A stretch of 64,000 nucleotides of DNA from a virus. Below are positions 6,001 through 21,000 of the stretch, one piece after another; position 1 is the first letter of the stretch, and the number at the start of each line of letters is the position of its first letter. Made by a program: the position numbers. The stretch covers positions 1 to 64,000 of the IMG/VR virus record IMGVR_UViG_3300027782_000037, one strand, 5' to 3'.

Positions 6001-9000
6001 AAACTGCTTTTAAAAATTTTCTCATTAAATTAACCCCTTTTGAACGCCGCGCTCGAACGAGCTTGCCCAGTATTCAACATCGGCAATGTTGGTGGGATTT
6101 TTACTGGTAATATATTTTTCCATACGTTGTCCGTATGATGGTGTATCGAATAGACTTGTGATCCATTTTAAAAAAGTTTTCATTTTGTGATTTCCTTATA
6201 ATGTACGTATTAGTGTTTGTACTAATATGTTTATTTAGTCATTATATTGCAAACGCACAATTCTGTCAATATTATTTTTGATATATCGCAAAATAAGTTA
6301 AATATAACATCAGGAGATTACTATGTTAGAATTTTTAAAACGCTTATTGGGTCTAGGACCTAAAGTAGAACAAGTGGCAGCGCCATACAAAGTGGAAGCA
6401 CCTACACCAGTTGTGGAACCAGCACCAGTTGCACCACCAGTCTTGGAACCAGCACCAGTTGCAGCAGTGGAGCCAGCGCAAGAGGATAAAAAAGCAGCTA
6501 CCGGAACTGCCAAGTCAACTGCTAAAAAAGGTGCCGAAACTGGAGCCAAGCCCGCTAGAAGACGTAAGAAGCCAGCTGCTACATAAACAGCATTCGTGCT
6601 AGTCCGATAGAATCAATAATGACCAAAAAGACGGCGTTGGCCAGCAGGCCAAAACTCCGTCTGGTCCAGCAAGCCCATGCGCTGGCGATACATCCACAAA
6701 TAAAGATTGAGTAGAGTGGAATTACCGGAATTGTCGGCACAGTTACCGCAAAGATAATTGCGCTGACGACAGAACATGCCCAGGCAAAGACTTCTGCTAG
6801 AAATCTAGTTCTGTTACTGGCCCAATCTTGTTTAATATATTGCCAGATATTGCTACTGGCTACTGTGATTAATTCCATTTTTCCACTGCCTATATAAGTT
6901 AAAGGAAGAAATATTCTTTCCTTTTGATTCGCACATGATATCAAAGTTATCTAGGAATCCCAAAGCCCATTCATTACATGCTGTATTCCAATAGAAGTCG
7001 CTGTGTGCTCGTAACTTTTGTTTCTTTTTACCCGCCAACAATAGTGCTGTATAGTCAGGTAAAGTGTTTACATCATGTCCGGGAAGCCAATCTTCACGAC
7101 TGACAGAATAATGGCAAGTAGGCCTGACACCGCGCCAGCTTTCCAACACACGTAATACACGATCATCTTTTGTTTGAATATATTCCCCGGTACGTATCCA
7201 ATGATGGTGGATATCGATAACAATAGGAACGACATCGCTAATAGTAAGTACATCTTCTAAGCCCCATGCGTTTTCTTCGTTTTCAATTGTAATAGTATTC
7301 CTAGCTTCCGGCGATAACCGTTGCAGGACTTGTCTGATGCCTTCTGGCCCTCGCCGCCCAGCAACGTGGACGTTGATTTTGAAGTCTTGGAACTGTTGGC
7401 CGTAGCCCATGAATCTTGCCATGTCCGCATGATATTCAAATTCCTCTATAGACCTTGAAACAATGTCGTCAGAATCTGAAGCCAAAACTGTGAACTGACC
7501 AGGATGGAAGCTAAGACGCACATTATTACCACGAGCCAGCAGCCCAATCTTAGCAAACGCCCGTTCAGCGTAAAGCCTAACGTCAGGGCGACGCCAAAAA
7601 TAACTCCAATCCCGGTGAGTATACACTGGTAAAATATCACTACTAATACGAACCATGCGAAGGTGCTCATCTAATTCACTTACCCTTTTAACAAGTTTAT
7701 AGGTAGATTCAATGTTTTGTTTCATTAAATCCCATAGTTTTTCTTCAGCGGCTGTTTGCGTTTGGCGATTAAGCCAAGCTACTGTGGTACTACCTGTATT
7801 GTACTTCTTGGCATCATCTGTTGCCTTGATACCATTAACCTGCTCTGGATAATCAATCCATTTACAAGCAAACCCAATTTTACCCTGCATAGGGATCCTT
7901 TACATTGTATAAGAATAGTAACGTAATGATACTATAAAGTTCATTGAATGTCAAACATTTTAGCTAAATATTCGATACATTGGATTTATCGCATTTTGCG
8001 GTGCTTTATAACATAACCAAACATAATTATGAAAATTAGCGAAATTAAAAAAGGTCAAAAAGATAGCAATGGCTATACTAAATGCTGGCCCGGCAAACAT
8101 GCGGCAGGTACCAAGAAGGGTAAGAACGGCGGACAGGTACGTAACTGTGTGCCCAATGAATCTGTAGCCGAAGCCGCCAATGCTGCACAGCAGGCGGCTA
8201 TTGCGGTTAATATGAAAAAGCATCACAAAAAGCCTAATAAAAGTGTGTCGGAAGGCTTTAATGAGAGTCCGGTATTAGATAAAAATATGAGAACTGCAAG
8301 TGTAAATGATACAGGTGAACAAGAAGGATCGTTTGTTAAAAATCAATTACGTACAATTCAACGTGTATCACACCATTTAAGTAACGAATTAGCTGACACC
8401 CAAGATTTGCCAGAATGGGTCGAGATGAAAATTAGCCAAGCCCAGGAGATGATGGTTGGGGTAATGGATTATGTAACTAGTGCCAAAGAAATCGATATGG
8501 ATAATCACGGTGATAGTGATAGTATGATGGCAGAAGCCAATGCGCAATTTGACATGATTGAAGCAATGATGGAAGATCTTGCTGTCGAGTATGGGATAGA
8601 CTCTGATTCGGTATGGGACCTATTTGAAACCGTATCGGATAGTGAATTACTGGCGGAAACCGCAGCGTGGGAAAAGTCATCGGGTAAGAATAAAAACGGC
8701 GGCCTTAATCAGAAGGGTGTGAATAGTTATAGAAGAGAACACCCCGGTTCAAAATTACAAACAGCAGTAACAACTAAACCCAGCAAACTTAAAAAAGGCA
8801 GCAAAGCAGCCAAGCGGCGCAAGAGTTTTTGTGCTCGTATGTCGGGTATGAAGAAGCACCGCACTGGTGCCAAGACTGCGCATGATCCCAATAGCCGTAT
8901 CAATAAATCACTGCGTAAGTGGAATTGCTAATATAAAGTAATGAAACGTATCCTGTTAAGTCCGTGGACCGCACTAATAACCTTATTCCTAGTTGCTACC

Positions 9001-18000: not shown

Positions 18001-21000
18001 GTATAGTCACAGTATCTAATTCAAGAACTATATATTTTTCTTGTAGTTTTGTTACTTCAGCGGTGCCGAAAATTATATTCAATTCGTATCTCCTGTTAAA
18101 TAATTATCTGAATATAGTTACCCAACATAAAAAGATGACCTTACATGAATTTTAATTTTGACCTTATTAGTGATATACATAGAGAAACCTGGAATCAGTT
18201 TGATTGGACCGGACAACCAACTGCACAGTATTGTATTGTAGCAGGTGATATTGCTAGAGATCGGGCCCTTGTAGTAGATACGCTAGAACACCTAAGTGAA
18301 GTTTATACCGGTGTCTTTTATATCGATGGAAACGACGAGCATAAAGATTATGCAGAAAACTTAAATCGTAGCTACGCTGAATTAGCTGATCTTATCGGCC
18401 CAATGAAGAATGTGGTATATATGCAGGATAATGTGGTTGTTATGAACGGCGTTGCTATTTTGGCCACTAATGGCTGGTGGAGTTATGACTTTGATCCTAA
18501 TTTATCAGTAGACCAATCATTAGCCTGGGTGCAGCAAAAGGATGGAATTAGTCAGCAGGCTGCGATTAATATTAATGAAACAGCATATCGAGATGCCGGG
18601 TATTTGGTTAACAGCGTTTCTAAATTACAAACTTATAATGATGTAAAATCTATAATTATTGTCACACATACAGTACCAACTCCAGAAATTATACAACATG
18701 ATCTAGAACTAAAAGATACATGGCGATATAATTCCATGGGAAACAAATACGTAAATGCTACTCTTGATTCAGATACTGAACGAAAAATTAAACTATGGTG
18801 TTTTGGTCATTATCATAGACCAGTGGATACCGTAATAGATAGGGTTAGATATGTCAGTAATCCTCGCGGACGAGGAAATACTGAATATTCTCAATTTGCG
18901 TATTACCCTAAAAGGATATCAGTTCCCATTAACTAGATTCCGGTTCTATTTGAATCTTCAGCGGCATATTTACTGAACGAGCGGCCATTGAAACCTCAAT
19001 TCCTTTTTGTTCTGCGATTTCATAAGGTAACACAGCTACGACTGCGGAGCCGATTTCATGTATATCCTGTGTAATTTTTACAGCAGTATCTGGTGTATAA
19101 TTAAAGAAGTTCATTAATGACTCAACAACAAATTCCATTGTTGTCCCATCGTCGTTTAAATAGATAACTTTAAACAGTGGAGGCTCTTTAATTTCCTGAT
19201 TAACATCAGGTCTTGTGATTACATCTGCTTGTGACATACTAGTTCCTTAAGTTTAGTACAGGGCGTAATTGCCCTGTACTGTATTTACTATATTTTACTA
19301 CGATTCGTACGTAATAAAAATAGTTTTAGGCTGAAGTGCTTCGGGAATATTACGTTCTAACCGTACGGTTAAAATGCCATTTTTCGACGATGCATTAACT
19401 ACTTCGACATAATCAGCTAGACTAAATGTGCGAATAAAATTACGAGCACTAATACCGTTATGCGAATAGGTGTGGCCTTCGGGAAGTTCTTTGTCCTGTT
19501 TTTTGCCAGTGACAATAAGAGTATTGTCCTTAACTTCAACATTGACCTCGCCCTCACTAAATCCAGCGGCGGCTACTTGAACTTCAAAAGTATTTTCGCC
19601 TGTTTTAATAATGTTGTATGGAGGGTAGTTAGAGTTTTCGTTACCGTGATGCTCAATTTGATTCATAATACGACTGAATAATTGATCTACGCCGATAGCG
19701 TTTCGAGTGAATGGATTGAAATCCAGGGTGGTGATTTTTGTCATTGTTTTCTCCTTTAATTAAACGAAGTGACATTGTTAATAGGCCCGACCATCGGCAC
19801 CTACAACAGTATTTATTATACTATAAAATCATTAACTACTAATATTATTTGGTAAAATTAATAGAATTTCTTGGGAAGTTCTTGGGCACGAAGTTTCTTT
19901 TTCCAACGGCTTTTGGCTGCACCCTTTTTTCTTTTTCTGGTAGTGGTGGGTTTCTCATATGTTTCCCTGGCTCGTAATTCGTCCAACAAGCCTGAGTCCT
20001 GTATTTTCTTTTTAAATTTTCTAAGTGCCTTTTCCACGTTTCCGTCATTGACAATTACTGTGTGTCCGTAAAGCTTCATTCATTCTCCCTTGCGAGTGTC
20101 GCTGGAGTATTTACTAGTTTTGACGTAATTGCCACTGATAATATACTCTGTTTGCGATATTTTGTCAGGTCGAACATATGAGGTAATAGTATGCGTTCTA
20201 ACTCTGTATGTAGTCCTCGAGCACCTGTTTTAGTTTTAAGAGTACGTTCTGCTATAAGATTTAACGAGTCTTTTTCAAAATTAAGTTCAACACCATCTTG
20301 TTTAAACAGCCATTTATATTGCCCAACGTAATTGTGTTTAACATCGGTTAATATACTGATTAATTGGTCTTTGGTCAGACCTTGTAAATTGACTAAGTTG
20401 CCAAATCTACCAACAAATTCCGGTATCATACCATATTTGACCAAATCATCTGGTGATGCTGCCATATTCTCCAGGGATTCTTCCTTGGCAATATCAGCAT
20501 TAAATCCCATAGCTGTTCCCTGTACTCGACTCTTTACAATTTTATCAAGGCCAACAAATGCCCCGCCGGAGATGAATAGGATATTAGTAGTATCAATTTC
20601 AACAGTGGTATCACCTCGTCGTATACCGGGAGGACTAATCTTAACTTTGGTTCCTTCGATTAATTTAAGCAAGGCCTGTTGCACACCTTCGCCCGATACG
20701 TCCCTGCTAACTGTAGCACTTTCGCTTTTGCGAGCAATTTTATCTATTTCATCTAAAAAGATAATACCGCGTTGGGTGCGTTCTACATCCGAGTCAGCGT
20801 TTTGGTATAATCTTAATATAACAGAGTCAACGTCATCGCCGACATATCCTGCTTCGGTAAGTGTAGTCGCATCGGCTATGGCAAATGGTACGTTCAAATA
20901 TTGTGATACAGTCTTTACCAGCAGGGTTTTACCTGTCCCAGTGGGCCCAACCATTAATATATTTGCTTTGTCAATTTCGTTTTCAGGATTGCTGATACGT

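What the first reader, a model, noticed from the sequence alone, without database searches (positions are those of the whole stretch)
8941..18082. Curli secretion + FecR + CHASE2 adenylate cyclase island: candidate phage trans-envelope cAMP signalling system
Seen: the operon csgF-csgG-curlin-FecR-curlin, then two GFPI membrane paralogs, converges on a unit headed by an intact CHASE2 adenylate cyclase. No csgE or csgD is present in the window. The island ends with a copy of the cyclase C-terminal domain. Known: CsgG/CsgF form an outer-membrane amyloid channel; curli-like genes have been reported in some marine myophages; FecR-domain proteins pair with CHASE2 cyclases in bacteria (e.g. Sinorhizobium NsrA-CyaK). 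Inference: CsgG and the curlins act as the outer-membrane sensor or conduit. The FecR protein, whose tail (..SGGNTVINIVQK) looks curlin-like, would relay to the periplasmic CHASE2 domain and give cAMP output in the infected cell. Possible uses are sensing superinfection, contact or aggregation.
Basis: partly seen in the sequence, partly recalled or inferred. Interest (0 to 1): 0.9.

Follow-up and report, generated by a model that had tools for sequence, protein, structure and literature searches.

The report
Phage curli cassette with cAMP sensor
A large uncultured phage carries, in rearranged order, the already published "viral curli" gene block (outer-membrane pore, two fibre subunits, an exported FecR-fold protein and a membrane adenylate cyclase), which probably lets a surface fibre report to a cAMP-making sensor, although nobody has tested this.

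Summary
These are csgF, csgG, curlin, FecR, curlin, two small membrane paralogs, a convergent CHASE2 class III adenylate cyclase, and a stand-alone copy of the cyclase tail. No csgE or csgD occurs in the 157-kb record.

The gene set is not new. Viral curli regions with FecR and an adenylate cyclase were published for SAR11 and OM43 phages (PMC9599517, PMC7029224, PMC9004378). This scan has also noted the cassette about 277 times in at least 181 other genomes.

This copy adds several points:
- It sits in a PA5oct-like jumbo phage lineage.
- The cyclase is inverted, which is rare (4 of 90 loci).
- In relatives, linkage of csgG, csgF, FecR and the cyclase had no exception among loci long enough to test.
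- Bacteria pair FecR-domain genes with CHASE2 cyclases without any csgG. The cassette therefore looks like a curli unit joined to that signalling pair.
- A short curlin-like C-terminal tail occurs only on curli-linked FecR proteins.
- A Caulobacteraceae chromosomal copy and a TolC/HlyD-based viral variant exist.

The trans-envelope cAMP relay is plausible but inferred. No cAMP receptor was found in six phage records.

The parts
8029..8931 (+). DUF6321-domain protein. It is the probable first gene of the plus-strand unit and ends 9 nt before the cyclase.
   Evidence: Pfam PF19846 4e-17. It is also adjacent to the cyclase in L040.
8941..10992 (+). CHASE2 class IIIb adenylate cyclase, 683 aa. TM 3-21, periplasmic CHASE2, three TMs (308-381), cytoplasmic catalytic domain, and a conserved C-terminal tail (about 605-683).
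   Evidence: Pfam CHASE2 4e-36 and Guanylate_cyc 1e-17. Hydropathy. PDB matches to Cya2, CyaB and CyaC, and motifs FTDVRGFT, LDKYIGD, DYTCLG, GVNLASR, VKGK.
11112..11912 (+). LpxH-like metallophosphoesterase. It is not an Icc/CpdA-type cAMP phosphodiesterase by sequence.
   Evidence: Pfam Metallophos 7e-12. NCBIfam LpxH 1e-12, below the cut-off. PDB LpxH 1e-4.
12021..13028 (+). GT4 glycosyltransferase, paired with the preceding gene. In many relatives the pair sits between FecR or the second curlin and the cyclase.
   Evidence: Pfam Glycos_transf_1 1e-24; synteny.
13025..13336 (-). Small single-pass membrane protein, paralog b (103 aa, GFPI motif).
   Evidence: phrog_18771 4e-28. 28% identical to paralog a. 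Linked to the cassette in three phage lineages.
13336..13515 (-). Unlisted 59-codon ORF between the two membrane paralogs, with overlapping stop and start codons on both sides.
   Evidence: Read directly from the sequence. Not examined further.
13515..13796 (-). Small single-pass membrane protein, paralog a (93 aa, GFPI motif).
   Evidence: phrog_18771 4e-31. No Pfam family. The nearest named Atlas cluster is YvrJ at 0.89, which is a lead only.
13838..14461 (-). Curlin-repeat protein 2 (207 aa, signal peptide). Its start overlaps the FecR stop.
   Evidence: Pfam Curlin_rpt 22.1 bits against a cut-off of 20.7; sequence.
14458..15579 (-). Exported FecR-fold protein (373 aa). Signal peptide, FecR beta domain about 25-205, low-confidence helical linker 210-300, six-strand C-terminal beta domain 315-372 ending in the curlin-like motif GGNTVINIVQ.
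   Evidence: Pfam FecR 2e-10. AF2 model, pLDDT 75. PupR 6ovk Z 15.0 and 5ix9 Z 6.8. Tail.
15589..16380 (-). Curlin-repeat protein 1 (263 aa, signal peptide).
   Evidence: Pfam Curlin_rpt 23.6 bits. NCBIfam CsgA 1e-8, below the cut-off.
16411..17202 (-). CsgG outer-membrane lipoprotein channel (263 aa, lipobox LLSGC).
   Evidence: Pfam CsgG 4e-44. NCBIfam CsgG 6.5e-48, below the cut-off. 47% identical to Melnitz CsgG.
17199..17666 (-). CsgF (155 aa). Signal peptide, and a mature N-terminus YQFKSPSFTGNGY that resembles the E. coli constriction peptide.
   Evidence: Pfam CsgF 1e-14; sequence.
17729..18082 (-). Stand-alone paralog of the cyclase C-terminal segment (117 aa, TTG start behind a GGAG ribosome-binding site). 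It lacks catalytic motifs.
   Evidence: BLASTP to cyclase residues 565-661, E 2e-12. Open reading frames of about 100-145 codons at the same place in 15 loci, several from near-identical contigs, at 32-85% identity to the window's protein.
18145..18936 (+). Second metallophosphoesterase, divergent from the curli operon (context). It is syntenic with Hsp20-ClpS in some relatives. No support for a cAMP phosphodiesterase.
   Evidence: phrog_1649 1e-28. TIGR03729 2e-13, below the cut-off. No PDB sequence match.

Best explanation
This is a jumbo-phage copy of the published viral curli cassette. I read it as a curli (type VIII) fibre-secretion unit joined to a bacterial-type FecR/CHASE2-cyclase signalling pair.

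Shown or strongly predicted:
- CsgG and CsgF would form the outer-membrane pore.
- The two curlins are exported subunits.
- The FecR-fold protein is exported to the periplasm.
- The cyclase has a periplasmic CHASE2 domain and a catalytically complete cytoplasmic adenylate cyclase domain.

Inferred:
- The N-terminal FecR domain is the periplasmic partner of CHASE2.
- The C-terminal beta domain, with its curlin-like last strand, docks the protein to curlin subunits or to the pore.
- cAMP synthesis would then report the state of the fibre or pore, for example secretion load, contact or pull.

What cAMP then controls is unknown.
For: Gene content and integrity.

Linkage:
- 50 of 50 and 109 of 109 viral loci. 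The same order is seen from a CsgG anchor.
- The same cassette occurs in Melnitz and HTVC008M.

The FecR/CHASE2 pair exists without curli:
- 33 of 44 bacterial FecR loci have a full-length CHASE2 cyclase homologue within 10 kb on either side (median gap about 2.2 kb), mostly directly downstream on the same strand. None of the 67 bacterial loci has csgG.
- Pfam confirms the architecture in Rhizobium, Methylocapsa and Sulfurovum.
- Published: a Campylobacterota cluster of CHASE2 cyclase, phosphodiesterase, FecR outer-membrane protein and TPR protein (PMC9239204); outer-membrane NsrA is required for CyaK signalling (PMC7529298).

The FecR domain has the fold that binds an outer-membrane partner in PupR (6ovk, Z 15.0). 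Its first half resembles the periplasmic plug of the MpIBP adhesin (5ix9, Z 6.8, 25% identity, 73 of 76 residues; PMC5550230).

The curlin-like tail:
- The motif G.N..I.I.Q is expected 0.025 times in the window. It is seen in the curlins and twice in FecR: at the conserved C-terminal tip, and once in the linker (GLNNAIDIAQ, residues 250-259), which is not conserved in relatives. 43 of 2000 shuffles gave any hit outside the curlins.
- It is conserved across lineages.
- It is present only in curli-linked FecR proteins, including the Caulobacteraceae copy, and absent from more than 60 bacterial cyclase-linked ones.

The secretion device is exchangeable. 12 viral contigs and L092 replace csgFG and curlins with a giant FecR-headed protein, a TolC-like duct and a HlyD-like protein. 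L092 and the 11 contigs that reach far enough also keep the cyclase, and most keep the two small membrane genes.

The bacterial island L089 adds an Icc/Rv0805-like phosphodiesterase.

FecR distance matrices track CsgG best (Pearson 0.84), and the cyclase tracks FecR best (0.60). Shared ancestry confounds this result.
Against: - No contact between FecR and CHASE2 has been shown in any system. The NsrA-CyaK link is genetic only.
- A profile of the FecR tail does not find the curlins (best domain E 8.3). hhalign of the C-terminal domain against curlin alignments scores like the controls (P 0.025 against 0.026-0.048). The tail resemblance therefore rests on about 10 residues.
- The C-terminal domain has no clear fold match (best Z 3.6).
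- No cNMP-binding domain occurs in the own record or in five other module-carrying phage records, one of them 100% complete.
- In this window the cyclase lies in a separate, convergent unit. Co-expression is not assured, and no promoter could be assigned.
- Melnitz-type and L014-type cyclases have Ser in place of the catalytic Asn.
- The literature reports podophage cassettes that lack the cyclase (PMC9599517).
Confidence: 0.45

Rival explanations
1. The two halves have independent functions. The curli genes make fibres for aggregation, 'sibling capture' or shielding against superinfection, with FecR acting as an accessory factor in place of CsgE or CsgB. The cyclase is a separate host-takeover enzyme. 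The genes stay together only because they were acquired and are inherited as one block.
For: - These uses of the fibre are the published speculations (PMC7029224, PMC9599517).
- CsgE is missing, so some periplasmic adaptor is needed, and FecR lies between the two curlin genes.
- In this window the cyclase is on the other strand.
- Cyclase identity tracks CsgF only weakly (Pearson 0.35).
Against: - FecR-domain genes sit next to CHASE2 cyclases in bacteria that have no curli genes.
- The cyclase and FecR stay together when the curli genes are replaced by a TolC/HlyD set.
- Linkage is 50 of 50 across 53-98% protein identity.
Confidence: 0.2
2. Control runs from the inside out. The CHASE2 protein and FecR gate or plug the CsgG pore, in the manner of CsgE or of a retention plug. 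The cassette would then regulate secretion or permeability rather than sense the outside. cAMP would be secondary or absent.
For: - The first half of FecR resembles the periplasmic plug of a retained adhesin (5ix9; PMC5550230).
- CsgE is absent.
- Some relatives have a cyclase without the catalytic Asn.
Against: - The window's cyclase keeps every catalytic residue.
- The bacterial island carries an Icc-like phosphodiesterase, which argues for real cAMP turnover.
- The Z of 6.8 is within the range of common arrangements.
Confidence: 0.12
3. The CsgG/CsgF complex serves as a pore for timing lysis (pinholin-like or secretin-like) or for uptake of large solutes. The curlin-like proteins would not form fibres.
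For: - Proposed for Melnitz (PMC9004378) and for pelagimyophages (PMC7029224).
- The two small membrane proteins give a weak N-terminal hit to a holin PHROG (E 1e-4 over 20 residues).
Against: - Two intact curlins with signal peptides are conserved with the pore.
- CsgF keeps the constriction peptide.
- The idea gives no role to FecR or the cyclase.
- The holin hit is very short.
Confidence: 0.08
4. The FecR gene is an iron-dependent (ferric citrate type) regulator, as it is named in the literature on the viral cassette.
For: Pfam family name and the naming in PMC9599517. The fold matches the PupR anti-sigma periplasmic domain.
Against: - The protein has a cleavable signal peptide and no cytoplasmic anti-sigma domain or membrane anchor.
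- No ECF sigma region 2 and no STN domain occur in the 157-kb record.
- Its bacterial relatives sit beside CHASE2 cyclases, not beside fecI or fecA.
Confidence: 0.02

Closest known systems
Viral type VIII secretion (curli) region of pelagiphages and Methylophilales phage Melnitz (PMC9599517, PMC7029224, PMC9004378; HTVC008M NC_020484, Melnitz MZ577097)
   Same: - The genes and core order are the same: two small genes, csgF, csgG, curlin, FecR, curlin, adenylate cyclase.
- There is no csgE or csgD.
- Proteins are 37-55% identical.
   Different: - The host phage is a PA5oct-like jumbo phage, not a T4-like pelagimyophage or an HTVC023P-type podophage.
- The cyclase is inverted and separated by an LpxH-like and GT4 pair.
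- The small membrane genes follow the operon instead of preceding it.
- There is an extra stand-alone copy of the cyclase tail.
- The papers do not mention CHASE2 and treat FecR as an iron regulator.
Bacterial FecR-domain protein plus CHASE2 adenylate cyclase pairs (S. meliloti NsrA-CyaK, PMC7529298; Campylobacterota cluster, PMC9239204)
   Same: - A FecR-domain gene sits next to a full-length CHASE2 class III cyclase that has the same C-terminal tail.
- An outer-membrane component belongs to the system.
   Different: - In bacteria the outer-membrane part is a fused or adjacent beta-barrel, with a TPR protein and often a phosphodiesterase. Here it is CsgG/CsgF plus curlins.
- No TPR protein was seen next to the window's cassette (not searched for specifically), and the two metallophosphoesterases are not Icc-type phosphodiesterases by sequence.
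- The FecR protein carries a curlin-like tail.
Canonical curli system of Enterobacteriaceae (csgBAC-csgDEFG)
   Same: CsgG lipoprotein, CsgF with the constriction peptide, and secreted curlin-repeat subunits.
   Different: - No CsgE or CsgD. CsgC was not searched for.
- Two non-canonical curlins.
- A FecR-fold protein lies inside the operon, and a cyclase is linked to it.
Retained type I secretion adhesins (MpIBP of Marinomonas primoryensis, LapA of P. fluorescens; PMC5550230, bioRxiv 10.1101/198937)
   Same: - A periplasmic beta-sandwich at one end of a surface protein is held below an outer-membrane duct.
- FecR residues 21-117 align to the MpIBP plug 5ix9 (Z 6.8).
- A viral sister cassette uses a giant FecR-headed protein with TolC-like and HlyD-like genes.
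   Different: - The duct here is CsgG, not TolC.
- The protein has 373 aa, not thousands.
- There are no LapD or LapG counterparts.
- The fold match is modest.

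Membership tests
Viral curli (T8SS) cassette with FecR and adenylate cyclase | csgF and csgG adjacent on a phage genome | tested here: met
   The phage context is shown by terminase, RNR and helicases.
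Viral curli (T8SS) cassette with FecR and adenylate cyclase | Curlin-repeat gene after csgG, then a FecR gene, often followed by a second curlin | tested here: met
   The order is identical to Melnitz and HTVC008M.
Viral curli (T8SS) cassette with FecR and adenylate cyclase | Adenylate cyclase linked to the cassette | tested here: met
   The cyclase stop lies 2.8 kb from the stop of the second curlin and 3.5 kb from that of FecR, on the opposite strand. It is co-directional in 86 of 90 relatives.
Viral curli (T8SS) cassette with FecR and adenylate cyclase | One or two small genes preceding csgF (called 'histidine kinase' in PMC9599517) | tested here: inconclusive
   The two phrog_18771 membrane paralogs hold that position in Melnitz and HTVC008M, but follow the operon here. 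They have no kinase domain. That they are the published 'HK' is my inference from position.
Canonical curli system (csgBAC-csgDEFG) | CsgG lipoprotein and CsgF | tested here: met
Canonical curli system (csgBAC-csgDEFG) | Secreted subunits with curlin repeats | tested here: met
   Curlin_rpt above the gathering score for both proteins. CsgA and CsgB NCBIfam hits fall below the cut-off. The fold and amyloid formation were not tested.
Canonical curli system (csgBAC-csgDEFG) | CsgE periplasmic adaptor and CsgD regulator | tested here: not met
   No PF10627 and no GerE domain in the 157-kb record. The record is only about 45% complete.
FecR-type anti-sigma factor of cell-surface signalling (FecIRA) | N-terminal cytoplasmic anti-sigma domain and membrane anchor | tested here: not met
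   A signal peptide is followed directly by the FecR domain. There is no other Pfam domain and no TM segment.
FecR-type anti-sigma factor of cell-surface signalling (FecIRA) | Partner ECF sigma factor and TonB-dependent transducer with STN domain | tested here: not met
   No Sigma70_r2 and no STN domain in the record.
FecR-type anti-sigma factor of cell-surface signalling (FecIRA) | Periplasmic FecR-fold domain | tested here: met
   PF04773 2e-10. PupR 6ovk Z 15.0, rmsd 2.6, 134 aligned residues.
CHASE2 class III adenylate cyclase with FecR partner (NsrA-CyaK type) | CHASE2 domain between transmembrane segments, with a cytoplasmic class III catalytic domain | tested here: met
CHASE2 class III adenylate cyclase with FecR partner (NsrA-CyaK type) | Complete catalytic and adenine-specifying residues (two Asp, Lys, Thr or Asp, Asn, Arg) | tested here: met
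   Alignments to Cya2, CyaB and CyaC, and to relatives. Enzyme activity was not tested.
CHASE2 class III adenylate cyclase with FecR partner (NsrA-CyaK type) | FecR-domain gene genomically linked to the cyclase | tested here: met
CHASE2 class III adenylate cyclase with FecR partner (NsrA-CyaK type) | FecR protein acts on the CHASE2 domain (physical or functional coupling) | not testable with these tools
   This needs binding or reporter assays, or a complex prediction. Only a confounded distance-matrix correlation is available.
CHASE2 class III adenylate cyclase with FecR partner (NsrA-CyaK type) | cAMP receptor and phosphodiesterase in the same system | tested here: not met
   No cNMP_binding domain in six phage records. 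The window's two metallophosphoesterases are not Icc-like. The bacterial island L089 does have an Icc/Rv0805-like gene.

The most novel reading that the evidence does not exclude
The FecR-fold protein is a tether that runs through the outer-membrane duct, either CsgG here or a TolC-like duct in the sister cassette. Its outer end is built into the fibre through the curlin-like last strand. Its folded FecR head stays in the periplasm as a plug and touches the CHASE2 domain. Pull or contact on the fibre, for example from another cell, a particle or a superinfecting phage, would then be converted into cAMP inside the infected cell. This would be a phage-encoded surface mechanosensor or contact sensor, and it would give the orphan CHASE2 domain its first defined ligand.
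Probability: 0.15. Interest if true: 0.85.

Novelty: new member of a known kind. Interest (0 to 1): 0.42.

Why it matters
The cassette is among the most widespread auxiliary gene blocks of aquatic phages. FecR relatives alone gave more than 7,400 protein clusters and 434 IMG/VR contigs. Its function is still an open question.

Three comparative results narrow the hypotheses:
- FecR and the CHASE2 cyclase form a bacterial pair that exists without curli.
- Only the curli-linked FecR proteins carry a curlin-like tail.
- The secretion device can be swapped for a TolC/HlyD set while FecR and the cyclase stay.

Together these point to one testable idea: a surface fibre wired to a cAMP sensor. They also name the pieces to test. 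CHASE2 has no known ligand, so confirming FecR as its partner would matter beyond phages.

Tried and rejected
- DNA-level search of the island against cultured phages found nothing. Only protein-level relatives exist.
- Test of the curlin-like tail by profile. An HMM of the last 24 alignment columns found only FecR itself; the curlins scored at noise. hhalign of the C-terminal domain against curlin alignments scored like the CsgF and membrane-protein controls. I therefore call the tail a short conserved motif, not demonstrated homology.
- Fold search of the C-terminal domain alone (model pLDDT 87) gave only generic Ig-like matches, best Z 3.6.
- The idea that either metallophosphoesterase is a cAMP phosphodiesterase: neither matches Icc/CpdA. 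One is LpxH-like and the other has no PDB match.
- Small membrane paralogs and the 117-aa protein: no Pfam family even at E 10. A YvrJ hint is not significant.
- Promoter and terminator scans were no better than shuffles. The T4 late motif TATAAATA is absent near the island and rarer than chance in the window, so expression timing is unknown.
- The NsrA paper (PMC5952392) is not held. I could not check NsrA's domain content.
- No paper in the library combines CHASE2, phage and curli, or jumbo phage and curli.

Full report
**What is there**

The window is phage DNA. It holds a large terminase, ribonucleotide reductase, ligase and helicases. The record is a 157-kb IMG/VR contig estimated at 45% complete. 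The terminase is closest to Pseudomonas jumbo phage PA5oct (52.6%). Relatives of the island lie on contigs of up to 357 kb.

- Minus strand: a 117-aa ORF, csgF, csgG, curlin, FecR, curlin and two small membrane paralogs.
- Plus strand, converging on these: a DUF6321 gene, a CHASE2 plus class III cyclase gene, an LpxH-like metallophosphoesterase and a GT4 glycosyltransferase.

Protein features (unless noted):
- CsgG has a lipobox (LLSGC).
- CsgF has a signal peptide and a mature N-terminus like the E. coli constriction peptide.
- Both curlins have signal peptides.
- The cyclase has one N-terminal TM, a periplasmic CHASE2 domain, three more TMs and a cytoplasmic catalytic domain.
- The catalytic domain keeps both metal-binding Asp, the Lys/Thr adenine pair, and the Asn, Arg and KGK motifs. 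It is predicted to be an active class IIIb adenylate cyclase.
- The 117-aa ORF is homologous to the cyclase tail (E 2e-12). It is kept as an intact small gene in more than a dozen relatives at 32-49% identity, so it is a real gene and not debris.
- No CsgE or CsgD-type domain is in the record.

**It is already known**

Melnitz and HTVC008M carry csgF, csgG, curlin, FecR, curlin and cyclase in one direction, preceded by the same two small membrane genes.
- The curli genes of pelagimyophages were reported in 2020 (PMC7029224) and discussed for Melnitz in 2022 (PMC9004378).
- The link with FecR, an adenylate cyclase and a 'histidine kinase' was published in 2022 for podophages and myophages (PMC9599517).
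- That paper does not mention CHASE2 and treats FecR as an iron regulator.
- This scan has noted the cassette about 277 times in at least 181 genomes, with the same verdict from other follow-ups.

**Linkage**

FecR relatives occur on 434 IMG/VR contigs.
- In the 80 best loci and in 42 loci anchored on CsgG, csgF-csgG-curlin-FecR is invariant.
- All 50 loci with at least 8 kb downstream of FecR hold the cyclase, at a median gap of 2.7 kb.
- All 109 loci with at least 3.5 kb upstream hold csgG and csgF.
- The cyclase is co-directional in 86 of 90 loci (the loci are not fully de-duplicated).
- The convergent layout of this window is therefore the rare form.
- The LpxH-like and GT4 pair often sits between FecR or the second curlin and the cyclase.

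**Origin of the parts**

A scan of bacterial genomes with a FecR alignment gave 76 loci.
- In Rhizobium, Allorhizobium, Agrobacterium, Devosia, Methylocapsa, Sulfurovum, Omnitrophota and others, the FecR-domain gene has a full-length CHASE2 cyclase close by, in most cases directly downstream. The cyclase is 29-35% identical over residues 37-683, tail included.
- 33 of 44 loci with enough flank have this cyclase, and none has csgG.
- Pfam confirms TPR, FecR (822 aa) and CHASE2-cyclase in Rhizobium; TPR, FecR and cyclase in Methylocapsa; and porin-like, FecR and cyclase in Sulfurovum.
- This matches the published Campylobacterota cluster (PMC9239204) and the NsrA-CyaK system (PMC7529298).
- FecR/CHASE2-cyclase is thus a bacterial module in its own right, and the phage cassette joins it to a curli unit.

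The FecIRA reading fails its membership test.
- The protein has a signal peptide but no anti-sigma domain.
- The record has no ECF sigma factor or STN domain.

Two Caulobacteraceae MAG contigs carry Icc-like phosphodiesterase, csgF, csgG, two curlins, FecR and cyclase among ordinary metabolic genes. The island has lower G+C than its flanks. So a chromosomal bacterial copy exists, contrary to the statement that these genes are not in bacterial T8SS operons.

**The FecR protein**

The AF2 model (pLDDT 75) shows three parts:
- a confident FecR beta domain (residues 25-205);
- a floppy helical linker (210-300);
- a six-strand C-terminal beta domain (315-372).

The N-domain matches the PupR cell-surface signalling domain (Z 15.0). 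Its first half matches the periplasmic plug of the MpIBP adhesin (5ix9, Z 6.8, 25% identity; PMC5550230). The C-domain has no clear match (best Z 3.6).

The last ten residues (GGNTVINIVQ) repeat the first-repeat motif of the phage's own curlins (GDNATINITQ, GDNNSINITQ).
- The pattern G.N..I.I.Q, drawn from the curlins, is expected 0.025 times in all six-frame ORFs. 43 of 2000 shuffles gave a hit outside the curlins. It also hits FecR once more in the linker (GLNNAIDIAQ, residues 250-259), a copy that relatives do not conserve.
- The tail is conserved in all curli-linked FecR proteins, including Melnitz, HTVC008M and the Caulobacteraceae copy.
- It is absent from more than 60 bacterial FecR partners of CHASE2 cyclases.
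- Profile methods do not support homology beyond this short motif.

**A sister cassette**

Contig L092 and 12 IMG/VR contigs replace csgFG and the curlins with:
- a giant FecR-headed protein (about 1,300 aa);
- a TolC-like duct;
- an unknown 248-aa protein;
- a HlyD-like protein.

L092 and the 11 contigs that reach far enough also keep the CHASE2 cyclase. Most keep the two small membrane genes. Earlier notes of this scan describe the same variant. FecR and the cyclase, usually with the small membrane genes, are therefore the constant core, and the secretion device is exchangeable.

**Mechanism and its limits**

The best reading is a surface fibre system coupled through the FecR protein to a CHASE2 cyclase, with cAMP as output. 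Only gene content, topology, catalytic integrity and linkage are shown. The FecR-CHASE2 contact, the role of the tail and the output are inferred.

Points against:
- No cNMP-binding protein is encoded in six module-carrying phage records.
- The cyclase here is in a separate transcription unit, and no promoter could be assigned.
- Some relatives have Ser in place of the catalytic Asn.
- Distance-matrix correlations (FecR-CsgG 0.84, FecR-cyclase 0.60) fit a linker role for FecR, but shared ancestry confounds them.

**Verdict**

This is a new member, in a jumbo-phage lineage and with a rearranged layout, of a known and still unexplained cassette.

Noticed in passing
window 11112-13028: An LpxH-like metallophosphoesterase and a GT4 glycosyltransferase form a pair. 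In many relatives the pair is inserted between FecR or the second curlin and the cyclase (e.g. L013, L017, L024, L052, L063, L076).
   Followed up: partly
window 13336-13515 (- strand): An unannotated 59-codon ORF lies between the two small membrane paralogs. Its start overlaps the upstream stop, and its stop overlaps the downstream start.
   Followed up: no
L089 5794-13103 (Caulobacteraceae MAG contig CANGCO010000005); also L090: A chromosomal bacterial copy of the cassette: Icc/Rv0805-like phosphodiesterase, csgF, csgG, two curlins, FecR with the curlin-like tail, and a CHASE2 cyclase that overlaps the FecR stop. G+C is 0.47-0.54 against 0.56-0.59 in flanks that hold methylmalonyl-CoA mutase, acyl-CoA dehydrogenase and DsbA.
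   Followed up: partly
L092 5210-15365; L203-L214: A viral sister cassette: a giant FecR-headed protein, a TolC-like duct, an unknown 248-aa protein, a HlyD-like protein and a CHASE2 cyclase, mostly with the two small membrane genes. It has no csgG or csgF, and Pfam found no family, so no ABC ATPase domain, in the 248-aa gene of L092. It recurs on 12 IMG/VR contigs at 46-72% identity.
   Followed up: partly
L001 (Melnitz) and L014 cyclase genes: A subtype of the viral cyclase has Ser in place of the catalytic Asn (GDSVSTAAR instead of GDGVNLASR) and Asp in place of Thr at the adenine-specifying site. These copies may be weak or inactive enzymes.
   Followed up: no
window 17729-19744 and relatives: Hsp20, ClpS, a second metallophosphoesterase and the stand-alone cyclase-tail gene form a conserved stretch upstream of csgF in part of the jumbo-phage lineage (L004, L010, L031, L064, L167, L180).
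   Followed up: no
whole window: The T4 late-promoter motif TATAAATA occurs only twice in 64 kb, against 8.7 expected. This phage probably does not use it.
   Followed up: no
L085-L088, L091, L092: Contigs filed under bacterial MAGs (Pelagibacter, Flavobacteriaceae, Rhodobacteraceae, Luteolibacter, Bacteroidetes, Rickettsiales) carry the phage-type cassette, some with other phage-lineage genes (DUF6321, Hsp20). They are probably phage DNA binned with bacteria.
   Followed up: no
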